Shown piece by piece: positions 14,686 through 31,467 of a stretch of 64,000 bases of DNA. The notes below the pieces were generated by a model. The model was not told the DNA's origin. It made no database searches and was given only the letters and a program-made list of their open reading frames with translations. Both the position numbers and the translations under genes were made by a program. Position 1 is the first letter of the stretch. Every line of letters starts with the position of its first letter. This DNA comes from a bacterium. Its GTDB lineage: Bacteria; UBP6; UBA1177; JAKLFG01. Location: NCBI GenBank assembly GCA_022709425.1, contig JAKLIW010000003.1, forward strand, positions 102,293-166,292, given 5' to 3'.

Positions 14686-16752
14686 ATGGTAAAAGAGCAG
14701 CATCAACCAGAGACCAGAGAAAAAAGCACGAATAGGAAAAAGAGTCTATCCGCTCTTAATACTATTCCAGCAGGGTACACCCTGGATTATATTTCCAGTA
14801 AACCAATCAAAGAGACTGCCAAGGAACAAGTTCGTCAGCGGGTGGTGCGTGCCCTGATTCACGAATATGGTTTTTCTCCAGAAGATATGGAGTTGGGTTT
14901 TTCCATTGGCGGTCGCAAGAAAGTTGATGTGGCCATTTTTCACCATGGCAAAGAACACACACTCGAAAATCTCGGCCGTGCCGTGATTTGCCGCCAGGAG
15001 CCAAATATTGGCAAGAACGCTGCCCGGATCCGGGACTTTGAACAGGCCGCAAATGACCTCGAAGAGATCGAGACTATTATGAGAGAGGTCGATGCGGTTC
15101 AGTATGGCCTGTGGACCAACGGTCTGGAATTCTTTTTTATCGAGAAAGAGCGGCAGCGCTTCGAAACCAAGTGCAACCCCATCGGTGACTGGCCGATGGC
15201 CGAAGAGTCAGTCGGTACCAAGGAGGTTATCTCCGATGCCCATACTCGCGTCGCCGACACAGAAATGCTCAAGATCACCTTCCGGCGTTGCCACAACTTC
15301 ATCCACGGCAACGAAGGCATGCCCAAGGACGCCGCATTCTGGCAGTTCCTTTATCTGATCTTCTGCAAAATGCATGACGAAAACCTGCGCGCCAAGCAGC
15401 GTCAGGCTTGGCAGTGCCGCTTCTGGGCTGGTCCCAAGGAGCAGTTCGAGGCCCAAGGCCGCAAGGCAATCCGCGTACGCATCGAGGATCTCTTCACCGA
15501 GGTCAAGAAGCAGTACAAGAACATTTTCCGAGGCAATGAGGAGATAGCCCTCTCCGACCGGGCACTGGCCTTTATCGTCTCTGAACTAGCCAAATACGAT
15601 TTCACCCGCACAGATGTCGATGCCAAGGGCGTGGCCTATCAGGAATTGGTGGGCGTCAACTTGCGCGGCGACCGTGGTCAGTATTTCACCCCCCGGGGCG
15701 TCGTGAAACTGGTAATTGAAATGCTCGATCCCCAGGAAAACGAAACTTTGCTGGACCCTGCCTGTGGCACCGGCGGTTTCCTGGTAGCCACATTGGGCCA
15801 TATGCTGAAGAAATTCCGCATAGAACAAAACACTCAGGTTGGGAAGGAGAGCACGACCGATTTTTTGAACGTTCACGAGCGGTTGAAAGAGTTTGCCGCT
15901 ACCAATGTGTTCGGGGCCGACTTTGACCCGTTTCTGATCCGAGCCGCGCAGATGAACATGGTTCTGGCAGGTGATGGTCGTGGGCATCTTTACAACATCA
16001 ATTCTCTAGAATTTCCACTAGGGCACCTAGCTGATTTGCCCTCTGCCAAGAAGGACCTCCCCTTTGGCTCTGTTGATCTCATTGCTACTAATCCACCGTT
16101 CGGTTCAGATATTCCAATTACCGATAGACACATCTTGGAGCAATATGAATTAGCTCACGAATGGAAGTCTGATGGAGAGGGTGGTTTTCGCAACACAGGC
16201 AGATTGCAGAGTAGCATGGCCCCTGAGATACTTTTTATTGAACGCTGCATTAAATGGATCAAGCCCGGTAAGGGTCGGATGGGCATTGTCCTGCCTGACG
16301 GGGTTCTCGGCAACCCAGCAGCGGAATACATCCGTTGGTGGATTATGCGCGAAACCCAAGTACTTGCCTCCGTTGATTTGCCGGTAGAATCCTTTATCGC
16401 CGAGGCCAATGTTAACATCCTCACCAGCCTGTTGTTCCTGCGCCGCAAGAGTGAAGAAGAAAAACGTACCGAGGCCATGGGCGCCATTGAAGAATATCCA
16501 GTCTTCATGGCCGTGGCCGACAAGGTTGGCTTCGACCGTCGCGGCAACAAACTCTACAAGCGCACTCCTGACGGCGAAGAAATCGTCGAAGCCAAGCAGC
16601 ATGTTGAGCGTATCCGCATCGGCGGACGCTTTGTGGAACGTACCCTGACTCGCAGTGAAAAGATTGAGGATAACGATCTGCCGGTTATCGCTGAAAAATA
16701 CCGAGAATTTATTAGGGAGCAAAAAGATGGGCGAAGAAAACGACATCATTGA
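14686..16752 (+). CDS. N6-adenine DNA methyltransferase (gamma-class, HsdM-like) fused to an N-terminal HSDR_N-type PD-(D/E)xK-like domain whose catalytic motif is degenerate
   Basis: Motif I LDPACGTGGFLV. Motif IV NPPFG. The N-terminus shows the HSDR_N pattern (RALIHEYGF...VDVAIF...AVICRQEP...GLWTNGLEFFF), but the canonical IE.K is replaced by ICRQ. Confidence 0.85.
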   Translation: MVKEQHQPETREKSTNRKKSLSALNTIPAGYTLDYISSKPIKETAKEQVRQRVVRALIHEYGFSPEDMELGFSIGGRKKVDVAIFHHGKEHTLENLGRAVICRQEPNIGKNAARIRDFEQAANDLEEIETIMREVDAVQYGLWTNGLEFFFIEKERQRFETKCNPIGDWPMAEESVGTKEVISDAHTRVADTEMLKITFRRCHNFIHGNEGMPKDAAFWQFLYLIFCKMHDENLRAKQRQAWQCRFWAGPKEQFEAQGRKAIRVRIEDLFTEVKKQYKNIFRGNEEIALSDRALAFIVSELAKYDFTRTDVDAKGVAYQELVGVNLRGDRGQYFTPRGVVKLVIEMLDPQENETLLDPACGTGGFLVATLGHMLKKFRIEQNTQVGKESTTDFLNVHERLKEFAATNVFGADFDPFLIRAAQMNMVLAGDGRGHLYNINSLEFPLGHLADLPSAKKDLPFGSVDLIATNPPFGSDIPITDRHILEQYELAHEWKSDGEGGFRNTGRLQSSMAPEILFIERCIKWIKPGKGRMGIVLPDGVLGNPAAEYIRWWIMRETQVLASVDLPVESFIAEANVNILTSLLFLRRKSEEEKRTEAMGAIEEYPVFMAVADKVGFDRRGNKLYKRTPDGEEIVEAKQHVERIRIGGRFVERTLTRSEKIEDNDLPVIAEKYREFIREQKDGRRKRHH

Positions 16753-18772
16753 AACCCTAGAGGAAGAACTCCTCGAAAAAGAGGATGTTGACGATGAAAG
16801 CGGTCCGGAGAAGTTCTTTATTGACATTCTGACCGGCAACAAAGAAAGCTCCTCGGCCAAGAAACTGCTAGTGCAGAAGGTCCTGCGCCAGCTCATCGAG
16901 AGTTACGGATTTGACCGAAATGATATTGAGGTTGATTACAAACATCGCATCAGGGGCGGCAAGCCGGCGAAAATTGATATTGTTATTTTTCGCCCCGATG
17001 CCGAACACACCAACGACAACCTGCAGCGAATCATCATCTGTAAGAATCAGAAGAAGCACGATAAGCTCCGCTCCGTTACCGAGGCCGACGCCGACCTGCG
17101 TCAGCTCAAGGAGCTGCTCGAGCTGATCCCCGGCACGACCCTGGGTATGTGGACCAATGGACACGAGGAATTCCTGTTCCAGGTCGAGCGCACCCGTTTC
17201 GAGGTCCGAACCAAACCTCTAGGCGTTTGGCCCATACCCGGAGAGGCAACAGTCGACCTTGAGCGCACAGGAGGAGTCATTCAGGTAAGCGCTGATGCGG
17301 AAGGCCTCGAAGATGCTCTTTCCCGTTGCTTCCTCTACCTTTCCAGCAATCAAAACATTGGCTTGGGTGACAGGGCTGGTTTTCAGCAGCTTGCTTTAAT
17401 TCTATTTTCGAAGATCTATGACGAAACGAAGCCTGCTGGTGAGAGACTGTTTTGGATCAAAGGGGAAGAGCCTTTTACACCAGAAGGTCAAGCGGCCATT
17501 CAACAGAGGATCGTTTCTTGTATAGAGGGGGCAATTGCATGGAAACCCAACCTCCTTGAACAAGGCTGGACTCTGAACCTAAGACCAAGCCAAACGGCTC
17601 GCGTGGTCATGGAGCTGGCTCGTTACTCTTTGAGCGAAACACTTCCTCGTTACCGAACCGGAGCTTTCAGATCAGTTGCTCGGTATGTAATGGACGGCAA
17701 AGATGGCCGCTATCCTACGCCACTCAATGTGGCCGAAATGGCGGTGGAGATGCTCGACCCGCAACCCGGTGAACGCATCATGGACTGCTCCAGCGGTACC
17801 GGCACTTTCTTGGCCATGGCCGCTGCGCACATCTTCAAGAAGAAACTGGCCGCCAGTGGCGCCACGCCTGAAGAGGCCACCAACAAACAGATCCGTCAGG
17901 CGCAAAACGAAACCGCCACCTGGGCGGCAAGCAATGCCCTGGGCTGTGACATTGATCCCTTTCTGGCCGTCGCCAGCCGCATGAATCTGCTGTTTACCAC
18001 CGGCAATCCCGGCCGAGTGTTCCGCATAGATGCCCGGACCTTCCCTGATGGAGATCAAGAGGGCATTGAAGTAGCTCGGCAATGCATGCCCCTCGGTAGC
18101 ATGGATGTGGTTTTGCTTAATCCATGGTTCTCCACCAAAAACACGGTGACCGATTCATTCATCCTAGAACGCTATGGCCTGGGCAATAACTGGGAGCGCG
18201 ATGAGGAAGGTGGATTCCGCAATACGGGCAATCTGAACACCGGTGGCGTACCACCCGAGGTTCTTTTTATCGAACGTGCCCTGCAGTGGGTGAAACCGGG
18301 CACCGGTCGTATCGCTATTTTATTGCCGGACGGGATCTTGGGTAACCCCGGAGATGAATACGTACGCTGGTGGATTCTGCGTCACTGCGAGGTGTTGGCC
18401 AGCGTCGACTTGCCCGTTGAACCCTTCAAGGTCACCGTCAAGGAGTATGGCCTGACGCCAGCTTTGCCTAGCCTACTGGTGCTGCGCCGTCGCAGCCAGG
18501 AAGAGCTGATCAACACAGAGTACCCGGAATACAAGGTCTTCATGGCCGTGGTGGATCGGGCCGGTGTGGATGCCCGAGGTAATCTGCTTTTCCAGCGAGC
18601 CCCCGATGGTGAAGAACTGGTTTTCGATGAGGAAGTGATCGAGCGGGTTCGTGAAGGTGGCGAAGTGAAAATCCGCCGCACCACGCGCCGCAACCGTCGC
18701 ATTCATGACGAACTGCCGCTGGTGGCAGAGAAATACAAGGAATTCCGCGCAACCGGCGAGGTGATGTTATGA
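16727..18772 (+). CDS. Paralogous HSDR_N-fused N6A-methyltransferase-like protein with an atypical motif IV (NPWF) and a degenerate nuclease motif (ICKN)
   Basis: Motif I MDCSSGTGTFLA. Motif IV reads NPWFSTKN instead of NPPF/Y. HSDR_N-like N-terminus (LRQLIESYGF...IDIVIF...RIIICKNQ...GMWTNGHEEFLF). Start set at the Met with an AGGGAG RBS; it overlaps the upstream gene. Confidence 0.8.
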   Translation: MGEENDIIETLEEELLEKEDVDDESGPEKFFIDILTGNKESSSAKKLLVQKVLRQLIESYGFDRNDIEVDYKHRIRGGKPAKIDIVIFRPDAEHTNDNLQRIIICKNQKKHDKLRSVTEADADLRQLKELLELIPGTTLGMWTNGHEEFLFQVERTRFEVRTKPLGVWPIPGEATVDLERTGGVIQVSADAEGLEDALSRCFLYLSSNQNIGLGDRAGFQQLALILFSKIYDETKPAGERLFWIKGEEPFTPEGQAAIQQRIVSCIEGAIAWKPNLLEQGWTLNLRPSQTARVVMELARYSLSETLPRYRTGAFRSVARYVMDGKDGRYPTPLNVAEMAVEMLDPQPGERIMDCSSGTGTFLAMAAAHIFKKKLAASGATPEEATNKQIRQAQNETATWAASNALGCDIDPFLAVASRMNLLFTTGNPGRVFRIDARTFPDGDQEGIEVARQCMPLGSMDVVLLNPWFSTKNTVTDSFILERYGLGNNWERDEEGGFRNTGNLNTGGVPPEVLFIERALQWVKPGTGRIAILLPDGILGNPGDEYVRWWILRHCEVLASVDLPVEPFKVTVKEYGLTPALPSLLVLRRRSQEELINTEYPEYKVFMAVVDRAGVDARGNLLFQRAPDGEELVFDEEVIERVREGGEVKIRRTTRRNRRIHDELPLVAEKYKEFRATGEVML

Positions 18773-20181
18773 GTAGAAAATTTCAATGCAAAGCGATACC
18801 AAGCACTTGGCTTGAGCACAATGGTCGCCGCCTTGATTGTGGTCCCTATATGTCCGGGGCTATAGAAGCCCGCGAACTTCTAAAAAGGCACGAAACAGAG
18901 GCTCTCCAATCTCTAACGGCGGGGTATAACGGAGGAATTTATAACGGGCCACAATTCGTTAGGAACTACGTTGAAGATCCAGCTTTCGGAGTCCCTTTTT
19001 TAACGACTTCAACAATGCAGCAAAGCGATACGAGTGGCCTTCCTATGATTAGTCGAAAAGACGCACATTCATCCAAGTTGCGCTACTTAAAAGTTAATGA
19101 GGGAATGACGCTGATCACATGCTCAGGAAGCATAGGGAAAATGGCCTATGCAAGAAAGGACATGGAAAAAGCGTGGTCAAACCAAGACATCATGAAGGTT
19201 GTTGCAGATCGAGCCAAAATCCTCCCTGGATATCTCTATGCCTACCTTTCTAGTCGTTTTGGTGTTCCGATGGTAGTCTCAGGCACTTACGGGGCAATCA
19301 TCCAGCATATTGAGCCGCATCACATTTCAGACCTTCCTGTTCCACGTCTCAGCGAAATTGAGAATCAAGCACATGACCTGATTCAAGGAGCAGCGAACCT
19401 GAGGGTTGAGGCTGCCGAAATAATTGCGCAGATCAGCGCAGAGGTCGAGAGAAGATTCGATTTGTGGGATGAGTCATTATCTGACAAGGCGAGAATAGCA
19501 AGAAACGGTTTTTTAACAACGTCTACTGCTCTTGCAGAGTCGGGCCGCTTTGAAGCCACTTACCATGACGCGATCGCTGCAGCAATCGCTGACAGGGTTC
19601 AATCTCAACCAAATACCCGAATAGACATTGTATGTAAAGTTAAGAAGCCAGGTATGTTCAAAAGGATCATGGTTGATGGCCCCGAACACGGCTATGGCTT
19701 TGTCCCTGGTTCTGAGTTATTTACATTGGCACCAAAGCCCGTGTACTGGGTCTCGCCGAGAACTCCGAATATCGAAGATTGTGTGATGTCTCCGTATTGG
19801 ATTCTCATCCAAGCGTTTGGGCAGCTTGGCGGATTGATTGGCCGATGTATTATGACTACTCCAATGCTGGAGGGTTGTGCCGCCACTGATCTTCAGATTC
19901 AACTCAGATTCGACAATAAGTTAGACGCTGGTTATGTGTTCGCGATTCTTTACAGTCGACCTGGTTATAAACTAATTACTAGAACTCCCATCGGTGGATC
20001 AATTCCGCACATTCATCCGAAAGACATTGAGTCACTTTGTATCCCTTGGCCAGAAGCAGATGTAAGACATGCTATTGGTGAAAGGATTATTGAGGCTTGG
20101 GATAAGCGTGAAGAAGCTGTTCGATTAGAGGATGAAGCCCGCTCCCTAGTCGAACGCACCATCGAGGAGGGAGGTCACTAA
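18769..20181 (+). CDS. HsdS-like specificity subunit with two target-recognition domains
   Basis: 470 aa. Two repeats of the TRD-end conserved block (GAIIQHIEPHHISDLPVPRLSEIENQAHDLIQ and GGSIPHIHPKDIESLCIPWPEADVRHAIGERIIEAW), the latter coiled-coil-like. Lower GC than the flanks. ATGA overlap with the upstream MTase. Confidence 0.7.
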   Translation: MSRKFQCKAIPSTWLEHNGRRLDCGPYMSGAIEARELLKRHETEALQSLTAGYNGGIYNGPQFVRNYVEDPAFGVPFLTTSTMQQSDTSGLPMISRKDAHSSKLRYLKVNEGMTLITCSGSIGKMAYARKDMEKAWSNQDIMKVVADRAKILPGYLYAYLSSRFGVPMVVSGTYGAIIQHIEPHHISDLPVPRLSEIENQAHDLIQGAANLRVEAAEIIAQISAEVERRFDLWDESLSDKARIARNGFLTTSTALAESGRFEATYHDAIAAAIADRVQSQPNTRIDIVCKVKKPGMFKRIMVDGPEHGYGFVPGSELFTLAPKPVYWVSPRTPNIEDCVMSPYWILIQAFGQLGGLIGRCIMTTPMLEGCAATDLQIQLRFDNKLDAGYVFAILYSRPGYKLITRTPIGGSIPHIHPKDIESLCIPWPEADVRHAIGERIIEAWDKREEAVRLEDEARSLVERTIEEGGH

Positions 20182-23100
20182 TGGCGAAGGTCATACCCAT
20201 CGGGCAACCCGCGAACGAATCTGAACGCCAGGCCATTGGTTTCCTTCGGGACCATTTGCCCGATGGATGGCTGATCTTCCACAACTTCGAGATGCGCCAG
20301 GGAGAGGAAGTGTTCGAAATTGACATTGCCATCCTCGCGCCTCACGCGGTGTACCTAGTGGATGTCAAGGGGACGCGGGGCAACATCGATGTGTATGGCT
20401 CCAAGTGGTACCCCGAAGGGCGGCAGCCTTTTCATTCGCCACTCGCTAAGTTGCGCAGCCACGCCAAGACCATGGCCACCATCATCCGCGAGAGCAATAC
20501 CGGCTTGATTGAGTTGCGCAAGGCCCATGTGCATGCTGCCGTGCTGCTCACCGCCGATGACGCTGTCGTGTTCGACCAGGCAGGCATAGACAGCCCAGAT
20601 GTGACCGACTTCAAACATTGCCTGAAATACTTCCGTGACCAAAGCCGCATCCCCGACAACCGTCTGGATAACATCACCCGCTTCCACTCCCAGATTGCCA
20701 AAGCGATTACCGGCAAAGCAAAGCCCAAGAGCGCTGCCCTGGTGTTCCGCGACTGGCAGGTTGAAGAGAAGCTCGGCGGCACCGACCGTTACACCGAATA
20801 TCGTGCCAAGCACAACCTGCTGGGCAAGAGCGGCGGCATGGCCCGCCTGCGCGTCTACCAAGCCGACCCCTATCAGGATGAGACCGCTCGCAAGGAAGAG
20901 TTCAAGAAAATCAGTAACGCATATCGTGCTGTCGCACATATGCCGACCCACGCCAACGTGCTGGCGGTGAAAGATCTCTTCAAGAATGAGGACGAGGATA
21001 AGATCGTACTGGTAACCGAGGACTTGCCCGGACAAGCTCTGCGCCTGCATATCAACAAGGCCTCCCTAGCGCTGACCTTCGATCAAAAACTACAAGTGAT
21101 GCGCGATGTATTGTCGGCGCTGGACCACGCGCATCGGCATGAGGTGATACACCGCAATCTCACCCCGGACGCCATTCTGGTTACCAAGGGTGGGCAAACA
21201 AGAGTTGTCGATTTTGATTATGCTCGTATTGGAAACAATCAAACACTTACTATTGCGCCCCTTATTATTGAGGATTTGGCAAAAAAAGAGTTTGAGAAAT
21301 ACCAAGCTCCAGAATGCGTGAGGTCTCCTGAGAAGGCTAGTATTGCATCAGATATCTATTCTTCAGGAGTTGTTTTTTATGAGCTACTAACTGGCGAACT
21401 ACCTTTTGAAAGTGTCGACCAGATGATAGAGGCCGCCGGCAAGTTCCCGGTGAACCCTTCAGAGCATAAGCCGGACCTGCCCAAAGGGATTGACGAGTGG
21501 ATACAGAAGTTCTGCGAGTTCGACCCCGAGGAACGGCACACCAACGCGGCCATTGCCCGCAAGGCCCTGGATGATCTGATTCTGCCCGAGGCCAAGAACG
21601 ACTCTGCTCCGGATGTTGGCGGCCCGGCCGCGGTTGTGCCTCAGCTCCCGGATGACTTGATGAACCTGCCGCAGAATTTCATACTGGCAGATCGCTTCCG
21701 CATTCAGAAAAAGCTGGGCAGTGGCGGCTTTGGGGTTGTCTACAAGGTATTTGATTCGCTAGGCGATGTGGTGCGGGTCATCAAACTGGTAACCAAAGAC
21801 CGCAACAGCGTATACGAACGACTACGCCGCGAATATAAAACCTTGATTAATCTGCCAGACCATCCGCGCGTAGCAAAGGTGATCTGGGCTGATCGCATGA
21901 ACGATACCCCTCAAACGCCCTACATAGTCTTTGAGTATCGGGAAGGTTTAGATGTTTCCGATCTGATCGATGCTAAAGCACTATCGGCGGAGGATGCCGC
22001 AAATATCGTTCGCGAGGCTGCTGAAGGATTGGCTCATCTCCACAAGCATGGTGTTTATCACCAGGATATCAAGCCGTCTAATCTGTTGTGGACTGACAAT
22101 GGTGTTTGCATCATCGATTTTAATATCGCAGTTTCCGAGAATGAAGAGCATCAAGGAGGCGGTGGTACGCGCCGCTATCTGCCGCCAGATTACGATTACT
22201 CCTCCAGGCCGGACACTTCTGATTGGATAGATCGCGACCTCTATGCCTTAGGTATTTCATTCTACGAGTGTCTGACCGGAACATATCCTTTCGACAGCCA
22301 CACACCACCGATCAAGGTGCAACCTAAGGACCCCAAGCAGTTCAAGGGTTGTGCCGACCTCAGTTCAACGCTTATAAATGTGTTGGTGAAGATGATTGCG
22401 CCGGAACGCAAGAATCGATTCGCCTCGGCGGAAGAGTTTTTGACCGCCCTGGCCGAGGTCAAGCGTCTGCGCTCGGTACTGACCACCGGAGAGGTTGGCG
22501 CCGGACACAAGGTCTTGTCCAAGCTAGGTTTCGAGCCGATTAAGCCCAACACCAATCCCTTTGTCACTCACCTGCTGACTCTCTACAGCCAGAGCCAGGT
22601 GTCTAACGCGGGCACCCGCGGTCTCGACGAAGTTGGCAAGGCCACCTACGTGCCGACCTATCTGGACGAAAAACTCAAGCCCGCGCTGCTCAAGGGAGAG
22701 TTCCGCCTGGTCATCATCAGCGGTAACGCCGGTGACGGTAAGACGGCTTTTATTCAGCAGTTCGAGGCTTTTGCCGAGAGCAAAGGCGCACAGATGCAGC
22801 GTGGCGCGAATGGGGCTGTTTTTCAGCTTAAGGGGTATACCTACCAGAGCAACTACGACGGTAGCCAGGATGAAGGCGACGAGCGCAACGACGCCGTGTT
22901 GCAGAAGTTCTTTGCCCCCTTCGCGGGCAAGGACGATTTCGGATGGCCCCAGAATCAGACCCGCCTGATCGCCATCAATGAAGGACGATTGGTCGATTTC
23001 TTTCTGGAACATGAAGAGGAGTTCCCTCTGCTCACCAAGCAGCTCCAGCAGGGGTTGGCCGGAGCCGCTCCGGAAGGGGGTATCGCAGTCATCAACCTCA

Positions 23101-24335
23101 ACCTGCGCTCGGTGGTTGCCGAACCCGAGGGAGGTCCGCCTTCGATTCTGGAGCGCCTGATCGCCCGCATGTCACAACAGGAATACTGGCAGGCCTGCGA
23201 GAAGTGTGATCTCAAGGGCAAGTGCTACGCCTATCACAACGCCCGGACCTTCCAGGATCCAGTTGCCGGTCCCAGGGTGATCGAGCGCCTAAAGATTCTT
23301 TATACCATTACCCACCTGCGCGGCCGCTTGCACATCACCATGCGCGATCTGCGTTCGGCGCTGGCATTCATGTTGGTGGGCACGCATGATTGCGACGCTA
23401 TTCACCAGCTCTATCAGAACGGCGGCGAGGAGACCCAGAATCGCATCCTTAACGGTTTCTATTTCAACTCATGGCTTGGCGGGGTAGAAGGCTCCTGTGA
23501 TCGGCTGATTGCCTTGCTGCGCGAGATCGATGTTGCCGAAGTCAGCAACCCCGAGCTTGATAGAAAATTGGGATTCCTAGCCCCCATACACCACAAATCG
23601 TCAAGGTATAATTTCGATGAACGAGCAAATTATGACGAGGATATTCTTAATACCTTGTTCCGCAATCTGCCTCGCGATTACTCGTCGAAGAACCGTGGTC
23701 GACTGATCGCCAAACACCGGATTTACCTATCTCACATGCGTCGTCGCCATTTCTTTGAACGACGCGACATTGGTTGGAAGAAGATGCTGCCTTACGGGAG
23801 TATTGATCCCTTCTTGGATGCTATTAAACAGCCTGGAGTGAAAAGTACCGATGAGGTTACCGCCATTCTACGAGCTATCAACCGCGGCGAAAGTCTGAGC
23901 GATCCGGCGCGATTGGGTAACCAGTTGGCGCTGCGTGTTCGCCAGGTGGACAAGGGCACAATCCGCAGTTACCGCCTCTTTGACGGCGACCATTTCACGC
24001 TCCGCACCGAGCAGAAAATGGCGACACATCCTTTCCTCGAGTGCCTGTCTCAGGTGTTGACGCTGCTTTATGATTCCGGCGACGGGCATAAGGCCAGCCT
24101 GCGCATCAATCTCGATATCTATGAAATGCTGATGCGGCTCAACAACGGTTACCGCCCCAGCATTGAGGAGCAGGAAGGCTTTTACCTGAGCCTAGCGGTA
24201 TTCAAGAATGTTCTATCCGCCGCTCCCTATCAGGAGGTCCTTCTCACCGAAAGCGGCTTTGAATTTTATCAGATCCGGCGTGACGAAAAGGGGATCTTAC
24301 ATTTTGGAAAAGTAAGCACGAGGACTGGAACATGA
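20181..24335 (+). CDS. Multidomain NERD nuclease + pseudokinase + Ser/Thr protein kinase + P-loop NTPase protein (1384 aa), PglW-like
   Basis: N-terminal NERD (GEEVFEIDIAILAPHAVYLVDVKGTRGNI). Kinase-like domain 1 has a degenerate catalytic loop HRNLTPDA and DFD. Kinase domain 2 has GSGGFGVVYKV, HQDIKPSNLLW and DFN. Downstream Walker A VIISGNAGDGKT. Confidence 0.85.
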   Translation: MAKVIPIGQPANESERQAIGFLRDHLPDGWLIFHNFEMRQGEEVFEIDIAILAPHAVYLVDVKGTRGNIDVYGSKWYPEGRQPFHSPLAKLRSHAKTMATIIRESNTGLIELRKAHVHAAVLLTADDAVVFDQAGIDSPDVTDFKHCLKYFRDQSRIPDNRLDNITRFHSQIAKAITGKAKPKSAALVFRDWQVEEKLGGTDRYTEYRAKHNLLGKSGGMARLRVYQADPYQDETARKEEFKKISNAYRAVAHMPTHANVLAVKDLFKNEDEDKIVLVTEDLPGQALRLHINKASLALTFDQKLQVMRDVLSALDHAHRHEVIHRNLTPDAILVTKGGQTRVVDFDYARIGNNQTLTIAPLIIEDLAKKEFEKYQAPECVRSPEKASIASDIYSSGVVFYELLTGELPFESVDQMIEAAGKFPVNPSEHKPDLPKGIDEWIQKFCEFDPEERHTNAAIARKALDDLILPEAKNDSAPDVGGPAAVVPQLPDDLMNLPQNFILADRFRIQKKLGSGGFGVVYKVFDSLGDVVRVIKLVTKDRNSVYERLRREYKTLINLPDHPRVAKVIWADRMNDTPQTPYIVFEYREGLDVSDLIDAKALSAEDAANIVREAAEGLAHLHKHGVYHQDIKPSNLLWTDNGVCIIDFNIAVSENEEHQGGGGTRRYLPPDYDYSSRPDTSDWIDRDLYALGISFYECLTGTYPFDSHTPPIKVQPKDPKQFKGCADLSSTLINVLVKMIAPERKNRFASAEEFLTALAEVKRLRSVLTTGEVGAGHKVLSKLGFEPIKPNTNPFVTHLLTLYSQSQVSNAGTRGLDEVGKATYVPTYLDEKLKPALLKGEFRLVIISGNAGDGKTAFIQQFEAFAESKGAQMQRGANGAVFQLKGYTYQSNYDGSQDEGDERNDAVLQKFFAPFAGKDDFGWPQNQTRLIAINEGRLVDFFLEHEEEFPLLTKQLQQGLAGAAPEGGIAVINLNLRSVVAEPEGGPPSILERLIARMSQQEYWQACEKCDLKGKCYAYHNARTFQDPVAGPRVIERLKILYTITHLRGRLHITMRDLRSALAFMLVGTHDCDAIHQLYQNGGEETQNRILNGFYFNSWLGGVEGSCDRLIALLREIDVAEVSNPELDRKLGFLAPIHHKSSRYNFDERANYDEDILNTLFRNLPRDYSSKNRGRLIAKHRIYLSHMRRRHFFERRDIGWKKMLPYGSIDPFLDAIKQPGVKSTDEVTAILRAINRGESLSDPARLGNQLALRVRQVDKGTIRSYRLFDGDHFTLRTEQKMATHPFLECLSQVLTLLYDSGDGHKASLRINLDIYEMLMRLNNGYRPSIEEQEGFYLSLAVFKNVLSAAPYQEVLLTESGFEFYQIRRDEKGILHFGKVSTRTGT

Positions 24336-26008
24336 GCATTAGGGGCAAAGATAAGGAGTTCCGAACTCCCAAAATTACCTATATCGACTTCAAGCACATC
24401 GAGATGGATCGAGTGCTGACCCTGCTCTTCCCCCGACTGAAATATGACGGGTATACGAGCAGGTTCAGCAGAGCGAGAAAACTGGAAGTCGAGGACTTCC
24501 TGACCGAGTTCATGGAGCATGATGAGTGGTTTGACGGATTTGATAAACATAAGGAAATAATAAAGAAATGGCTTGAGACAGATCTGCTTGATCTTGTGAA
24601 TAGGGGAAGGGCAAATCAAGCAGTGGCGGCTCCTCGACCGCTTCATGGGAATACCTATAAGTTTCGCAATGTAAAACACACGAGGGATTATGGGGCGGCA
24701 GAACACCTATATTGGATGCTTTATTATGCCCGTAGAGGTAGATGTGAGGCGGCTAGAAGCTCCTTAAAAAAATTCTTCTTTACAGGATACGATTTTCACA
24801 CTGACAAATATGATGCTGGTCTCAATGTAGATGTCGAAACACAAGCGATTTTGAGACTCGACCTCCAAGTAACTCAGGATACAAAAAGCAACGATGAGCC
24901 GGAGAGATATCAGCCTCTATGTGTTGGCCAAGCCGACATAATGGCCGACGACATTCTACGACTTCTGGCCTATGAGTCTTATGTCCCACGTTCGGTGTTA
25001 GTGGATTACCTCAAAACTCTAATGGCATTCCATCTGGCACTTTACCATCTCAAGTTGTTACAGATGCTACCAAGGCTGGTGAAACAGCGATCCGAAAACG
25101 ATCTTTGCACCACCAAGGAATGCCCGATCAATCCGAGCCTCGACAATGTGTTGGAATGCTGTCCTTACCGCTTAGCGCTGGTCGTAGACATGGGCAACAT
25201 CAACAATCCTCATATTGCCGAGCTGGCCCGCAAGTCAACGGAGCGGTTCTATCGCCAGATCCCGGCATTCGTGCAATCTAATTTTATCGTTAAAAAGCTT
25301 GATGAGATGGCGGAGAATATGCGTCTTCAAGGGAAACTGGCATTGCCTTCGAGTGGTCACTTTTCAGCTGGTGATTTAATTGGTCTGCTTAAGTCTGAAC
25401 ATGATTCAAATCGGGAGGCCTATTTTACGGCTCGCCTTTCAAAATTGATCGAAGAGGCAGGAACAAGCGGGGAGGAAATTGACCCGGAGATCCGAGATGT
25501 TACTTCGATGAACCTGAATGCGTTTGAGAAATTCATCGAAATTCTGATGGCGTATCGAGGCAAGTATCACCGCCAGTACATCACCGAGTGTCTAGATTCC
25601 CTTCTGCTGAAGAACAAAGAGAACGGTCTGCTGGCCCAACCCCGGACCAAGGGAAGTCCTCGGCGGTTTGTGTTGGGGAGCAAGTTACTTGAAGTGCTGC
25701 TTCAGGTGGCCGTGCTCACCCAAGACGGCGGTCGCTTCGTGACCCGCGAGGTTCGCATTGAGGAGTTGCTGGCTTTTTTGAGAAATCGTTACGGCCTTTA
25801 CATTGACCGACTGCCAGAAGGAGCCCATGCCAACAGCAGCATCCTCGACAGGCGCGCTTTGCGCCTCAACCTTGAAGCCTTTAAGCGTCGACTTCGTGAA
25901 ATCGGATTTTACGAGGATCTGTCGGATGCCTATGTGACCCAGAAGGTATCGCCCCGCTATGCGATTGAGAGAAATGACGGAACAGATAAAAACGGGAGGC
26001 ACGCATGA
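24332..26008 (+). CDS. Hypothetical protein (558 aa), translationally coupled within the defence-like operon
   Basis: 4-nt overlaps at both ends. No motif was recognised. The 5' half has lower GC. Confidence 0.6.
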   Translation: MSIRGKDKEFRTPKITYIDFKHIEMDRVLTLLFPRLKYDGYTSRFSRARKLEVEDFLTEFMEHDEWFDGFDKHKEIIKKWLETDLLDLVNRGRANQAVAAPRPLHGNTYKFRNVKHTRDYGAAEHLYWMLYYARRGRCEAARSSLKKFFFTGYDFHTDKYDAGLNVDVETQAILRLDLQVTQDTKSNDEPERYQPLCVGQADIMADDILRLLAYESYVPRSVLVDYLKTLMAFHLALYHLKLLQMLPRLVKQRSENDLCTTKECPINPSLDNVLECCPYRLALVVDMGNINNPHIAELARKSTERFYRQIPAFVQSNFIVKKLDEMAENMRLQGKLALPSSGHFSAGDLIGLLKSEHDSNREAYFTARLSKLIEEAGTSGEEIDPEIRDVTSMNLNAFEKFIEILMAYRGKYHRQYITECLDSLLLKNKENGLLAQPRTKGSPRRFVLGSKLLEVLLQVAVLTQDGGRFVTREVRIEELLAFLRNRYGLYIDRLPEGAHANSSILDRRALRLNLEAFKRRLREIGFYEDLSDAYVTQKVSPRYAIERNDGTDKNGRHA

Positions 26009-29000
26009 GCAATGCGTTCATCAAGCTTTCCTATGATAAATTGAACGCAGCGGTCGCTTGTCTGCTGTGCCCGCGTATCGAAACAATCCTGGGTGACCGT
26101 GGCCCAGGCCACTGCATGCGGATCACCGATCTCGATGACGATGTAATGGAGTCTGTCTGCAAGGAACTGCGCCGAACCCGACCCGACGGAAACATCTTTA
26201 TCCTTGGTAGCCATGATCAGGAAAGTCTGCCTTTCCGAGTCACTTCCACCAAACTGGTGGAATTGCGCAACCCGGACTCGAACGGCGAGTTGCGTCAGCC
26301 TTTGATGGTCTTTATACCCACCTCGCTTCGCACCAGCGCCGAGGATTCTTTCGGCGTGGCGACCTTCGAGGAGCTGGCCTTCACCGGTATCTATGAGAAC
26401 CTTATCGACTCACTACTAGATCGGATCCCGACAACACTGGTCGGCCCTGTTCGCGACCTTTTTGGTTTCCTCACAGAGGAGGAATGGCTGTTTGCCGATG
26501 ATGTTTCTCGTGTGCGGTACCTGCTCACTGCGCTCGAAAACGGGATTGATGGAGAAACCCTCGGGGCCAGCCTGTATGAATTGACTTTGATCCCGGACTT
26601 CAAGCTTTTTGCCGATCCTGGCATGCTCAGGGGCAAGATTCGCCGTAACCTCGACAGCGTCCGTAGTTTGATGATTTCTCACAAGTCGGTTCGTGGACGC
26701 ATTGCCGGTTTGGGCCTCAGCGACAAGACCTTGGAATCGCGCCTATTCGCCTACTTTGAAAAACACGATGTCCATGAGCCGGAATCCTGGACCTTGCCCA
26801 TCGCGACTGATAAGAGCTGGTGGAGCATTTCTTTCGACAAATGGACATTCCGGGGAGAGCTTTACCTAGACAAGGTTCTGCTGACGGTGCTGGGAACCGA
26901 CTTGCCGGTTGTTCAGAAGGAAGAGACCGATGACCAGCTTTCCGGCCTGATTGGACAACAGGTTCTGATCCCGAATGATCGCCGCAAAATGAATGTGGAG
27001 TTCGAGGTCAATCCTCACCCGGGCAAGGTCAGCGGTCTTGACCATTTTACGGTTCAGATCGTTTCGCAGAATGATGGCCCGGTAGGAAAATCAAAAAAGG
27101 TTAAAGCGTGGACGCCGAATCGCCTTCAATGTACGACTAATCTTGCAAAGCTCAATAAGGTTGAATTCGAGGAAGGATGGCATTTCATTCGTATCTTGCC
27201 TTGGTCGGCAGACGGCGATCAAATTCCGCTGGAAGCGGGTTCTTCCTCCGAAGGTGCTAAACACTCCTATGAAAGCGAACCATTCTATGTCCTGCCCGGT
27301 GGCAACATTGAGGAGGAACCGCCGCAAAGAGCCATACCCATTGAACAGAGCCTAGAGCATGCACGTTTCCGGTTGCAACTGACGGCATTGGGCGATGAGC
27401 GCGATCCGGAAGACATCGCTATCAGTAGTGTCGTTTGGGCCGAAGGCAACAGTTCGAAGAAGGTCTCCCGACATGAAACCTTGCTTGCGAAATTTGGTCG
27501 CGAGGGCGCTTTTCAGATACCGCTTTCGCGCATGCTCAAAACCATTGAGCAACGCATCTTGGCTGAGCCCAAGCATCCATCAGGCTGGCGAATGCAGATC
27601 AATCTGGATACCCCTGAGTTGCCATCTGAGGTTGGTCTCACGCTGCCTTCTTCTGCCGCAATGGCCTCTTTTTTGGCCGCTCGCGAAGAGTTTTTTGCAG
27701 CGGTACGCAAAGACACTGCCGAGTTGATTATGCAAGGGCTTTCGTTCCGAGACTCGGAAAAGGAATGCCTTGCCTATGCGGAAGGGTACCTTGATCTAGT
27801 AAGAAATCTTATCCGCCAAGCCGAGACGACTTCTGGTGCCGACCGCCAACAACACCTACAATCGCTCAGGAATGTGTTGGCCGTTGATTCCATTCATGTC
27901 GTCTTAACTGATTTCCGCGGAAGACACCGGGAGGCTGTTTTGGTCTCTCCAACCCATCCGCTCCGTGCTTTGTGGCTAAGCAGCTGGGTCACCCTGGGTA
28001 AGGATTGGATCGAGAAGATCAAATCAGGCGGAAAGGATTACATTCCTCATGTTCGTTCTGCGCTCCTAGAACGCCTTGCGCCATCTGCCTATCCGGTCGG
28101 TATTCCAGTCGAGGATGGCCGAATCTTCACTCCGGTCGACAACCTGAATGCGTTCTGGGCACTTTACGCCCCAACAACCGAGGAAAATTCCAGAGGCCTG
28201 ATGGCGGAAATCTGTTCAGCGCTTGGCTTGGCCGAGCCCTCTGCGGCGGGAACAGATGTTTGCGGAAAGGTCATTGCGGACAAGATCGAGCGCTATCTCT
28301 CCCAGCATCCGTATGTGCGAGAGTTATCACTAAACATCTTCAACCCGGGCGCCGCATCAGTAATTGCGGATGCCCTGCTCTCGCTCCAGCAAAAGCGTGA
28401 GCATGCCGATTTGCGCTATGACATCCGGCTCTTCACATCGGACCCCGATTCGCCAGTTTTAGGTGAGGCACTTGAATCGATGGTCCGTCCCGGGGCAACA
28501 GTAAACGAGGCCGCTGACGCGTTTGCGATTTCGACGGGCAGCCATCTGTTCTCCAAGCTGAACTTGGCTAAGCACGCGCTGAATGAGTTTCGTTCAAATT
28601 CCAAGGAATTCCCGGCACACATCAGCGTTCTTCTGGATGTGTTTCCCGCCGAGGAGATATCCATTACAGAGAAGCCGATGGGCGTGACCCCATTGCATGG
28701 GCTGATACAGGACTTTGACACTGACTTCGTTGATGACGATACGGGTACCTTCTGGAACAAGCGGCCGATTGTCGGACGATCCCTCGCTGCGGATAGCCAC
28801 GCGACATGCTTTGATTTGTTGTCGTCCCTGAGCCGAAACCTCAGTTTCGCTACCTCAGCGATTGCTGCTTCTGGTGCCAGTTTTAAATCTGTGCCCGTCA
28901 TAACCCTTGGCCTCGATGCCGTTCAACGAGAACTAATCTACGAAGTGCACCAGATTAGCGATTGGGTGTTCACCATCGACCGAAATATGGGGATTGAATT

Positions 29001-31467
29001 TTTCGATCATGGTGGCCGGAAGAATAGACCAGACTATCTGATTGACTATGTGCCTGGAGCCAGTTCTCAGGCGACACACAACCTAATCATCTCTTCGCGA
29101 TCGAACGATGAGCTGGAGGCAATGCTGAAGCCGGTGCTGCTCGAGCACGGATTGTCCGCCGACGGTGAGCAGTCGGTTCAGATATTGGCAAATCTGCGGT
29201 CGCTTTCCGGCCAGCTTGCCCTGAAGCTGATTTCTGCTCGTACGCAACAGGCGGAAGCACTTGGTTTGGCTTTGGCACGGCTCTATCTCGAATATCAGGG
29301 CGCATTGAGCAACCAAGTAATTGTGCCGTTGGACGCGCATACGGACCTTTACCGCTCAAGCGATGAGTCAAACGACGTCAACGACGCTATAAGCCTTCAA
29401 CGCACTGACTTGGGACTGTTTGACTTAGATTTGAACACTAGGACGATCACTTGCAACCTGATCGAAGTGAAATGCTATTCGCAGGTGGGCAATTTCGCAG
29501 CCTTTAACCAACTGAAGGAACGAATTTCCGCCCAAATCAATCAGAGCGAGCGAATTCTCCAGCGCCACTTCGACCCGGCCCTAAAAAAACCGGACCGGCC
29601 GGATAGGCTGCTCAAGAGCCGAGAGTTTGCGCAGATCCTTCGTTTCTATCTAGAACGCTCTTTGCGCTACGGGATCTTTGATGCGACCGCTGCGCAAGAG
29701 TCGCGAGGATTACTTGAGTCCATCGAGCAAGGCTACTCGCTTCAGTTCAAACGCTGCGCTCTGATCTTTGATTTTGAAAAGGCGGGCACCGATGCTCCGG
29801 ACAACGAAGTGGGCATTGAATTCCACCGCATCGGCAAAGATCTCATTCATGCCTTGCTGGAGAGTTGCCGCAAGTCTGTTTCTGTCGAGACGGAGAAAGA
29901 GCCGACTACACATCTTCTAAGCGAGCAGTTTATCCACAATGTGCCGAAGCTCGAGACAGCGGTCTTTATTGCACCCAAGAGAACCCGGTCAACATCTTGG
30001 ACTTTGGATGAACTCTGGGACGATGAGCCGGAGGTGCCAATCACTCCGCCAGCATCCTCGGCCGCACGGGAAACACCCAAGGTAGCCAAGGAGAAAACAG
30101 AAAAACAGTCGAAACCTTTTGAGCAAGCACCTCGACCTCCCGCAATCGCTTCTGAAGAAGATGGCGAACAACTCGCCTCCGTGGATGCCTTATCAGAAGC
30201 CCCTGCTAAATCCGAACCCGAAATGCAAGAGACTCAGACGTCTAAACCTGTCTCACAAGCAGAGGTCAGCTATGACATTATGCTCGGCGTCAATGGCGGC
30301 TCGCCTCAATACGGATTACTCGGAGAGATTTCCGGCAGAAAAGTCGCGCTGGATCTCAATCACACCCACACGATCAGTTTATTCGGGGTTCAAGGTGGCG
30401 GTAAGAGCTACACCCTTGGAACGGTGATTGAGATGGCATCCATGCCGCTTCAGCACATCAATGTGCTGCCAAGCCCCCTCGCTACGGTCATTTTCCATTA
30501 CAGCCCGACGCAGGATTATGCGCCGGAGTTTACCTCGATGATCCATGCCAACTCAGTGGAAGAGGAAATTCGCATTCTGCGAGAGCATTACAAGGCTATG
30601 CCGAAGGCTCTGAAGGATGTGTTGGTCCTTACCCCGGCGAATAAGGTGAGTGATCGCCGGGCCGAGTACCCAGATATCGAGATTAAGCCGATAGCTTTTT
30701 CTGCCTCCGAGCTTAAAGCGGCTCACTGGAAATTCCTGATGGGTGCGATTGGTAGTCAAAGCATGTATATGCGGCAAATCAATCTCATCATGAGAGGCCT
30801 GAGGGATAACCTAACATTGGATGCTCTGCGAGCAGGTATTGACAACTCAGGTCTGTCCGATCATCTCAAAGAGCTAGCCCAGACGCGCCTTCTTTTCGCC
30901 AGCGAATACATCGACGATAACCAGCGACTTCAAGATCTGATTCGTCCAGGCCGTTTGATCATCGTTGATCTGCGCGATGAATACATTGAGAAAGACGAGG
31001 CCCTGGGTCTGTTTGTGGTGATGTTGCAGATTTTCTCGGAAGCAACCTACCAGGGGAGCGCCTTTAACAAGCTGGTGGTTTTCGATGAAGCCCACAAATA
31101 CATCGAAAACGATGACTTGGTTTCTGGCCTTGTTGAGGTTGTCCGTGAGATGCGACATAAAGGGACCAGTATCATGGTGGCATCTCAGGATCCGCCATCG
31201 GTCCCTGTCTCCCTTATTGAGCTGTCATCGCAAATCATCATGCACAAGTTTAACTCACCTGCCTGGTTAAAACATATTCAGAAGGCAAATGCTGCCCTGG
31301 GAAGACTGTCTTCTGACAAGATGAGCCGCTTGAGCACAGGCGAAGCTTATGTTTGGTCATCAAAATCTTCAGATGAAGCATTCACAAAGGAAGCGATAAG
31401 AATAAAGCTGCGTCCCAGAGTCACTCAGCATGGAGGCGCCACAAAGACTGCCGTAGCCGACAAATGA
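26005..31467 (+). CDS. Giant protein (1820 aa) with an internal PD-(D/E)xK-like motif and a C-terminal HerA/FtsK-like (DUF87-type) P-loop ATPase
   Basis: The C-terminal region has ALDLNHTHTISLFGVQGGGKSYTLG (Walker A in HerA-like context) and LVVFDEAHKYI (Walker B DEAH). Around aa ~1135, LFDLDLNTRTITCNLIEVKCY gives a D...E-V-K core. The N-terminal ~1100 aa is unassigned. Confidence 0.75.
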   Translation: MSNAFIKLSYDKLNAAVACLLCPRIETILGDRGPGHCMRITDLDDDVMESVCKELRRTRPDGNIFILGSHDQESLPFRVTSTKLVELRNPDSNGELRQPLMVFIPTSLRTSAEDSFGVATFEELAFTGIYENLIDSLLDRIPTTLVGPVRDLFGFLTEEEWLFADDVSRVRYLLTALENGIDGETLGASLYELTLIPDFKLFADPGMLRGKIRRNLDSVRSLMISHKSVRGRIAGLGLSDKTLESRLFAYFEKHDVHEPESWTLPIATDKSWWSISFDKWTFRGELYLDKVLLTVLGTDLPVVQKEETDDQLSGLIGQQVLIPNDRRKMNVEFEVNPHPGKVSGLDHFTVQIVSQNDGPVGKSKKVKAWTPNRLQCTTNLAKLNKVEFEEGWHFIRILPWSADGDQIPLEAGSSSEGAKHSYESEPFYVLPGGNIEEEPPQRAIPIEQSLEHARFRLQLTALGDERDPEDIAISSVVWAEGNSSKKVSRHETLLAKFGREGAFQIPLSRMLKTIEQRILAEPKHPSGWRMQINLDTPELPSEVGLTLPSSAAMASFLAAREEFFAAVRKDTAELIMQGLSFRDSEKECLAYAEGYLDLVRNLIRQAETTSGADRQQHLQSLRNVLAVDSIHVVLTDFRGRHREAVLVSPTHPLRALWLSSWVTLGKDWIEKIKSGGKDYIPHVRSALLERLAPSAYPVGIPVEDGRIFTPVDNLNAFWALYAPTTEENSRGLMAEICSALGLAEPSAAGTDVCGKVIADKIERYLSQHPYVRELSLNIFNPGAASVIADALLSLQQKREHADLRYDIRLFTSDPDSPVLGEALESMVRPGATVNEAADAFAISTGSHLFSKLNLAKHALNEFRSNSKEFPAHISVLLDVFPAEEISITEKPMGVTPLHGLIQDFDTDFVDDDTGTFWNKRPIVGRSLAADSHATCFDLLSSLSRNLSFATSAIAASGASFKSVPVITLGLDAVQRELIYEVHQISDWVFTIDRNMGIEFFDHGGRKNRPDYLIDYVPGASSQATHNLIISSRSNDELEAMLKPVLLEHGLSADGEQSVQILANLRSLSGQLALKLISARTQQAEALGLALARLYLEYQGALSNQVIVPLDAHTDLYRSSDESNDVNDAISLQRTDLGLFDLDLNTRTITCNLIEVKCYSQVGNFAAFNQLKERISAQINQSERILQRHFDPALKKPDRPDRLLKSREFAQILRFYLERSLRYGIFDATAAQESRGLLESIEQGYSLQFKRCALIFDFEKAGTDAPDNEVGIEFHRIGKDLIHALLESCRKSVSVETEKEPTTHLLSEQFIHNVPKLETAVFIAPKRTRSTSWTLDELWDDEPEVPITPPASSAARETPKVAKEKTEKQSKPFEQAPRPPAIASEEDGEQLASVDALSEAPAKSEPEMQETQTSKPVSQAEVSYDIMLGVNGGSPQYGLLGEISGRKVALDLNHTHTISLFGVQGGGKSYTLGTVIEMASMPLQHINVLPSPLATVIFHYSPTQDYAPEFTSMIHANSVEEEIRILREHYKAMPKALKDVLVLTPANKVSDRRAEYPDIEIKPIAFSASELKAAHWKFLMGAIGSQSMYMRQINLIMRGLRDNLTLDALRAGIDNSGLSDHLKELAQTRLLFASEYIDDNQRLQDLIRPGRLIIVDLRDEYIEKDEALGLFVVMLQIFSEATYQGSAFNKLVVFDEAHKYIENDDLVSGLVEVVREMRHKGTSIMVASQDPPSVPVSLIELSSQIIMHKFNSPAWLKHIQKANAALGRLSSDKMSRLSTGEAYVWSSKSSDEAFTKEAIRIKLRPRVTQHGGATKTAVADK

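What the first reader, a model, noticed from the sequence alone, without database searches (positions are those of the whole stretch)
20181..24335. PglW-like protein: NERD nuclease + inactive kinase + active Ser/Thr kinase + P-loop NTPase in one 1384-aa polypeptide
The N-terminal NERD domain retains a plausible D / D-x-K catalytic core (EIDIAIL...LVDVKG). The first kinase-like domain has HRN in place of HRD and DFD in place of DFG, so it is a predicted pseudokinase. The second kinase domain has an intact Gly-loop, HQDIKPSN and DFN. A Walker A motif (GNAGDGKT) follows. An N-terminal inactive kinase followed by an active C-terminal kinase is the arrangement reported for PglW of the Streptomyces Pgl system. 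The N-terminal nuclease-family domain and the C-terminal NTPase make this a plausible sensor-effector of the operon.
Basis: partly seen in the sequence, partly recalled or inferred. Interest (0 to 1): 0.8.

Follow-up and report, generated by a model that had tools for sequence, protein, structure and literature searches.

The report
MAD6 kinase-nuclease of a MADS operon
The 1384-residue protein is real and has the described domains, but it is MAD6, an already catalogued subunit of the methylation-based anti-phage system MADS, and not PglW of BREX type 2.

Summary
ORF 20181-24335 (+) encodes 1384 aa with four parts: a NERD nuclease with intact catalytic residues, a degenerate kinase, an intact Hanks-type kinase, and a Walker-A P-loop module.

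The PglW/BREX-2 interpretation is only partly right. Only the N-terminal NERD + pseudokinase + kinase triad is PglW-like. The protein passes NCBI's curated model for MAD6 (828 bits, cut-off 460) and fails the PglW model (225 bits, cut-off 990). Its C-terminal 600 aa is an SspF/DndF-type P-loop core. No PglX, PglY or PglZ was found among the 35 window ORFs scanned.

The gene sits in a translationally coupled operon MAD2-MAD2'-MAD5-MAD6-MAD7-MAD8. The same gene order recurs in all loci with enough flank among 80 genomes from many phyla. RefSeq already annotates it in E. coli.

MADS was shown experimentally in P. aeruginosa, where mad6 is required for defence. The NERD + inactive/active kinase + DndF-core fusion was described computationally in 2024.

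The most likely role is the F-type regulatory and co-effector subunit of an SspFGH/DndFGH-like restriction module that is steered by a type-I-like methyltransferase. How MADS restricts DNA is still unknown.

Verdict: correct observation, known family, low novelty.

The parts
20181..24335 (+). mad6 ORF (1384 aa plus stop). Its start overlaps the mad5 stop by 1 nt, and its end overlaps the mad7 start by 4 nt.
   Evidence: NCBIfam NF047741 MAD6 equivalog 828.3 bits against a cut-off of 460
20214..20546 (+). NERD (PD-(D/E)xK) nuclease domain, aa 12-122. Catalytic residues are E46, D48 and D61-V-K63.
   Evidence: Pfam PF08378 1.7e-15. The residues are invariant or near-invariant in 71 relatives. 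The model is confident in this region.
20748..21578 (+). Pseudokinase, aa ~190-466. It has HRN-L-T-P-D-A in place of HRD-L-K-P-x-N, DFD in place of DFG, Arg224 at the beta3-Lys position, and no Gly-loop.
21681..22466 (+). Hanks-type Ser/Thr kinase predicted to be active, aa 501-762. Motifs: GSGGFG, K535, E551, HQD629IKPSN634 and D646-F-N.
   Evidence: Pkinase 5e-64. PDB alignment to StkP and PknB. Catalytic residues are invariant. Foldseek to PknB gives TM 0.86.
22518..24332 (+). SspF/DndF-type core, aa 780-1384, in three subdomains:
- P-loop (nt 22695-23117) with Walker A GNAGDGKT (nt 22722-22745), N891-Y-D893, and Asn933 at the Walker-B position.
- Helical lid (nt 23130-23921) with a Cys1006/1009/1015 cluster.
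- C-terminal alpha+beta domain (nt 23925-24311).
14686..16752 (+). mad2, an N6-adenine DNA methyltransferase. Motif I is DPACGTGGF and motif IV is NPPF.
   Evidence: NCBIfam MAD2 1017.8 bits against 720; motifs
16727..18772 (+). Second mad2 paralogue, 37% identical to the first, with motif IV NPWF. The longest ORF starts at GTG 16655; ATG 16727 is the more likely start.
   Evidence: NCBIfam MAD2 767.8 bits against 720. NPWF is conserved in 27 of 28 tandem-type loci.
18769..20181 (+). mad5, an HsdS-like specificity subunit
   Evidence: NCBIfam MAD5 494.9 bits against 400; PADLOC mad5 1e-31
24332..26008 (+). mad7, related to SspG/DndG
   Evidence: NCBIfam MAD7 661 bits against 410; PADLOC mad7 3e-123 and SspG 3.4e-9
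26005..31467 (+). mad8 (1820 aa), related to SspH/DndH. It carries an invariant PD-(D/E)xK-type motif, D1135...E1154-V-K1156 (nt 29407-29472), and a C-terminal HerA/FtsK ATPase (nt 30322-31455).
   Evidence: NCBIfam MAD8 233 bits against 175. PADLOC mad8 5e-40, DndH 9e-7, SspH 2e-6 and HerA 4e-7. Invariant residues in 61 sequences. PDB TdpA 2e-4.

Best explanation
The ORF encodes MAD6, a mandatory subunit of a MADS (methylation-associated defence system) operon. This operon is the subtype MAD2-MAD2'-MAD5-MAD6-MAD7-MAD8.

MAD6 is a fusion of two modules:
- A PglW-type triad: NERD nuclease, pseudokinase and active Ser/Thr kinase.
- An SspF/DndF-type core: a P-loop with Walker A and an Asn at the Walker-B position, a large helical lid with a Cys cluster, and an alpha+beta domain.

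Proposed mechanism:
1. MAD2, with its degenerate paralogue and the HsdS-like MAD5, methylates a host motif. Methylation-based self-marking was shown for P. aeruginosa MADS and is inferred here.
2. MAD6-MAD7-MAD8 are the colinear counterparts of SspF-G-H / DndF-G-H, which damage unmodified DNA. They form the restriction module acting on unmethylated DNA. The homology is shown here; complex formation and activity are inferred.
3. Within that module, the MAD6 core binds a nucleotide and docks to MAD7/MAD8 as a regulatory or sensor subunit (inferred).
4. The pseudokinase restrains or scaffolds the adjacent active kinase, as in JAK-type tandems. Auto- or trans-phosphorylation by the kinase gates nuclease activity, either NERD in cis or the MAD8 PD-(D/E)xK domain (inferred).
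For: Identity:
- NCBIfam MAD6 equivalog scores 828 bits against a cut-off of 460. MAD2 (both copies), MAD5, MAD7 and MAD8 also exceed their cut-offs.
- PADLOC's best hit is mad6 at 2e-120.
- RefSeq annotates the same gene order in E. coli EC11, with mads6 at 1385 aa and 77% identity.
- P. aeruginosa loci hold an 87%-identical protein in the same order.

Context:
- In 80 genome loci from many phyla, MAD2...MAD5-MAD6-MAD7-MAD8 are colinear on one strand whenever the flanks are long enough.
- The canonical MAD3/MAD4 subtype carries the same four-part MAD6.

F-G-H homology:
- The MAD6 core matches SspF at 4.5e-28.
- MAD7 matches SspG at 3.4e-9. MAD8 matches SspH/DndH at about 1e-6 and also HerA.
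- The core shows the published DndF hallmarks: canonical Walker A, Asn at Walker B, an acidic strand-2 motif, a Zn-type insert in a roughly 200-residue helical lid, and a C-terminal alpha+beta domain (PMC10853773). They are seen here.

Activity of the parts:
- Catalytic residues of NERD, the second kinase and Walker A are invariant in 71 relatives. The first kinase is degenerate.

Experiments elsewhere:
- mad6, mad7 and mad8 are each needed for defence. MADS protects at MOI 10 without loss of growth (bioRxiv 10.1101/2023.03.30.534895).
- SspFGH damages DNA that lacks the modification (PMC8092258).
Against: - Nothing was tested on this locus.
- The subtype validated experimentally (SMC4386) has MAD1, MAD3 (an ATPase with an OLD-like Toprim domain) and MAD4. 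MAD3 and MAD4 are essential there. This window lacks all three, so defence by the tandem-methylase subtype is inferred, not shown.
- The similarity of the core to SspF/DndF is remote: E about 1e-28 with no curated cut-off. Standalone relatives score no better.
- The kinase's substrates and the trigger are unknown. A 2026 review lists the MADS restriction mechanism as unknown (PMC12904381).
Confidence: 0.85

Rival explanations
1. It is PglW, the sensor kinase of a BREX type 2 (Pgl) system.
For: - The same N-terminal triad with matching domain boundaries.
- PADLOC PglW 8e-71 over aa 14-760.
Against: - NCBIfam BREX_PglW scores 224.6 bits against a cut-off of 990, and only the first half of the profile matches.
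- The C-terminal half is SspF-like with an invariant Walker A. It is not the wHTH triad plus Walker-less STAND described for PglW.
- No PglX, PglY, PglZ, BrxD or BrxHI was found among the window ORFs scanned.
- All 80 related loci carry the MADS gene order.
Confidence: 0.02
2. The NERD and kinase domains are back-up suicide (abortive-infection) effectors. On this view they fire only when primary restriction by MAD8 fails, as proposed for N-terminal fusions of DndF and for PglW. They are not part of routine restriction.
For: - This is the proposal in PMC10853773 and PMC12839542.
- PglW is toxic in E. coli.
- MAD8 carries its own invariant PD-(D/E)xK motif.
- Family members exist that lack NERD or the kinases.
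- One kinase-less operon has a separate kinase gene downstream.
Against: - Deleting mad6 abolishes defence, and MADS protects at MOI 10 with normal growth. This argues against an abortive outcome. The deletion also removes the core, however, so the N-terminal domains were not tested on their own.
- The triad is present in all 74 of the 80 related loci whose sequence reaches far enough upstream.
Confidence: 0.2
3. MAD6 is an enzymatically silent scaffold. On this view the nuclease, kinase and P-loop motifs are relics and only the SspF-like architecture matters.
For: - The Walker-B aspartate is replaced by Asn, so hydrolysis is doubtful.
- In this member the kinase has HQD and DFN instead of HRD and DFG.
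Against: - All catalytic residues of NERD, the second kinase and Walker A are invariant across relatives whose N-terminal halves are only 22-64% identical to this one. Meanwhile the neighbouring pseudokinase has drifted freely.
- The equivalent lysine in PglW is required for defence.
Confidence: 0.05
4. It is a eukaryote-like signalling kinase with a housekeeping role and lies in a defence island by chance.
For: Strong generic matches to PknB and Stk1 kinases.
Against: - The operon context is strictly conserved across phyla.
- The genes are translationally coupled.
- It falls below the cut-offs of all housekeeping kinase equivalog models.
- Homologues 82-91% identical are scattered across unrelated phyla, which indicates mobile defence cargo.
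Confidence: 0.01

Closest known systems
MAD6 of MADS (P. aeruginosa SMC4386 system, Maestri et al. 2023/2024; RefSeq 'methylation-associated defense system protein kinase MAD6', NCBIfam NF047741)
   Same: - Passes the curated equivalog cut-off.
- 77% identical to annotated E. coli MAD6 and 87% identical to P. aeruginosa homologues, with the same length.
- The same downstream MAD7 and MAD8 and upstream MAD5 and MAD2.
   Different: - This operon lacks MAD1, MAD3 and MAD4 and has a second, NPWF-type MAD2 paralogue instead.
- The MADS preprint describes Mad6 only as a protein kinase. It does not mention the NERD domain or the SspF/DndF-like half.
PglW (BREX type 2 / Pgl, Streptomyces coelicolor)
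   Same: The N-terminal NERD, atypical inactive kinase and active Hanks kinase, with near-identical domain boundaries.
   Different: - The C-terminal half of PglW is alphaCTD-like plus three wHTH domains plus a Walker-less STAND domain. Here it is an SspF-type P-loop core with an invariant Walker A.
- The partner genes differ.
- The PglW equivalog cut-off is failed.
DndF / SspF of the phosphorothioate-dependent restriction modules DndFGH and SspFGH, including the DndF variants with NERD plus inactive and active kinase fusions described by Rakesh, Aravind and Krishnan 2024
   Same: - The same core hallmarks: Walker A, Asn at Walker B, an acidic strand-2 motif, an enlarged helical lid with a Cys insert, and a C-terminal alpha+beta domain.
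- The same F-G-H gene order.
- The same N-terminal fusion grammar.
   Different: - The sequence relationship is only remote, about 1e-28 to SspF and about 1e-7 to DndF.
- The module is coupled to an N6-adenine methyltransferase and an HsdS-like subunit, not to Dnd/Ssp sulphur-modification genes. None of those was found among the 35 window ORFs scanned.
MkoA variants of Mokosh (PADLOC PDLC03921)
   Same: The N-terminal NERD and kinase region matches at 2e-58, aa 8-674 against profile positions 7-655. The triad therefore looks like a portable cassette used by several defence systems.
   Different: The rest of the 1607-position MkoA profile is not matched.
JAK-family tandem pseudokinase-kinase (an analogy for regulation only)
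   Same: The best PDB fold match of aa 1-790 spans both kinase-like domains of full-length JAK, at E 3.5e-24. In both proteins the pseudokinase precedes the kinase.
   Different: - No evolutionary link is claimed.
- The overall TM-score is low (0.27), so the relative orientation of the domains is not comparable.

Membership tests
MADS MAD6 | Scores above the curated NCBIfam equivalog cut-off (NF047741) | tested here: met
   828.3 bits against a cut-off of 460
MADS MAD6 | Encoded next to MAD7 and MAD8, the three components that the authors' detection model treats as mandatory | tested here: met
   MAD7 scores 661 bits against 410 and MAD8 scores 233 against 175. Both lie immediately downstream with 4-nt overlaps. 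The rule itself is quoted.
MADS MAD6 | Accessory methyltransferase MAD2 and specificity subunit MAD5 in the same operon | tested here: met
   MAD2 scores 1017.8 and 767.8 bits against 720. MAD5 scores 494.9 against 400.
MADS MAD6 | Accessory MAD1 (HTH), MAD3 (ATPase/Toprim) and MAD4 (DUF4276), as in the type system | tested here: not met
   - No mad1, mad3 or mad4 hit among the ORFs of the operon and its three upstream neighbours scanned against PADLOC and NCBIfam.
- No small HTH ORF upstream of MAD2.
- These components are accessory, and 27 of 65 related loci share this tandem-MAD2 layout.
MADS MAD6 | Confers methylation-dependent protection against phage | not testable with these tools
   Shown only for P. 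aeruginosa SMC4386
PglW (BREX type 2) | N-terminal NERD, inactive kinase and active kinase | tested here: met
PglW (BREX type 2) | Scores above the curated NCBIfam equivalog cut-off (NF033442) | tested here: not met
   224.6 bits against a cut-off of 990. Only profile positions 13-760 of 1391 are aligned.
PglW (BREX type 2) | C-terminal half made of an alphaCTD-like domain, three wHTH domains and an inactive STAND domain without Walker motifs | tested here: not met
   The C-terminal half matches SspF/DndF and has an invariant Walker A. The PglW description is from PMC12839542.
PglW (BREX type 2) | Neighbouring PglX, PglY/BrxC, PglZ, BrxD and BrxHI | tested here: not met
   PADLOC and NCBIfam scans of 35 ORFs across the window found none
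SspF/DndF superfamily (F subunit of F-G-H restriction modules) | P-loop with canonical Walker A, Asn in place of the Walker-B Asp, an acidic motif at strand 2, an enlarged helical lid (optionally with a Zn-binding insert), and a C-terminal alpha+beta domain | tested here: met
   - GNAGDGKT, D893, N933, C1006, C1009 and C1015 are invariant.
- The AF2 model at pLDDT 93 shows the three subdomains.
- The criteria are from PMC10853773.
SspF/DndF superfamily (F subunit of F-G-H restriction modules) | Sequence match to SspF/DndF profiles | tested here: inconclusive
   SspF 4.5e-28 with near full-length coverage, and DndF 2e-7. The match is significant but remote, and PADLOC has no curated cut-off. 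Standalone relatives score similarly. This indicates a sister branch, not an orthologue.
SspF/DndF superfamily (F subunit of F-G-H restriction modules) | Followed by a G-type (wHTH) gene and an H-type (nuclease plus HerA/FtsK) gene | tested here: met
   MAD7 matches SspG at 3.4e-9. MAD8 matches SspH and DndH at 2e-6 and 9e-7 and also HerA. MAD8 has an invariant D...ExK motif.
SspF/DndF superfamily (F subunit of F-G-H restriction modules) | Coupled to phosphorothioate modification genes (dndABCDE or sspABCD) | tested here: not met
   No Dnd/Ssp modification gene was found among the 35 window ORFs scanned. The upstream partners are N6-methyltransferases and an HsdS-like subunit.
Hanks-type Ser/Thr protein kinase | Gly-loop, beta3 Lys, alphaC Glu, catalytic HxD...N and Mg-binding DFx Asp | tested here: met
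   All are met by domain 2 (aa 501-762). None is met by domain 1 (aa ~190-466).

The most novel reading that the evidence does not exclude
MAD6 is the decision-making subunit of a phosphorylation-gated restriction machine. In this reading:
1. Its SspF-type P-loop, lid and alpha+beta module senses either engagement of an unmethylated site by the MAD2/MAD5 complex or a phage-derived nucleotide or protein.
2. Sensing releases a JAK-like restraint of the kinase by the pseudokinase.
3. Phosphorylation then licenses the NERD nuclease and/or the MAD8 PD-(D/E)xK nuclease.

If so, MADS would show that an SspFGH/DndFGH-type module can read base methylation as well as backbone sulphur. It would also show that the PglW-type triad is a portable 'kinase-controlled nuclease' cassette shared by BREX-2, Mokosh and MADS.
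Probability: 0.2. Interest if true: 0.65.

Novelty: already known. Interest (0 to 1): 0.25.

Why it matters
As a discovery it matters little. The family has a curated NCBI model, the system was validated in P. aeruginosa, and this exact protein is already in GenBank.

Its value lies in correct filing. The locus is MADS, not BREX type 2.

The analysis also joins two literatures that do not cite each other on this point. The MADS preprint calls Mad6 only 'a protein kinase'. The Dnd re-analysis treats NERD-kinase-DndF fusions as part of a standalone system. Read together with the operon data here, they say the following:
- The MADS restriction module is an F-G-H-type machine coupled to a type-I-like methyltransferase.
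- It contains two conserved PD-(D/E)xK nucleases and one conserved active kinase.

That gives concrete point mutants for attacking the restriction mechanism of MADS, which is still unknown.

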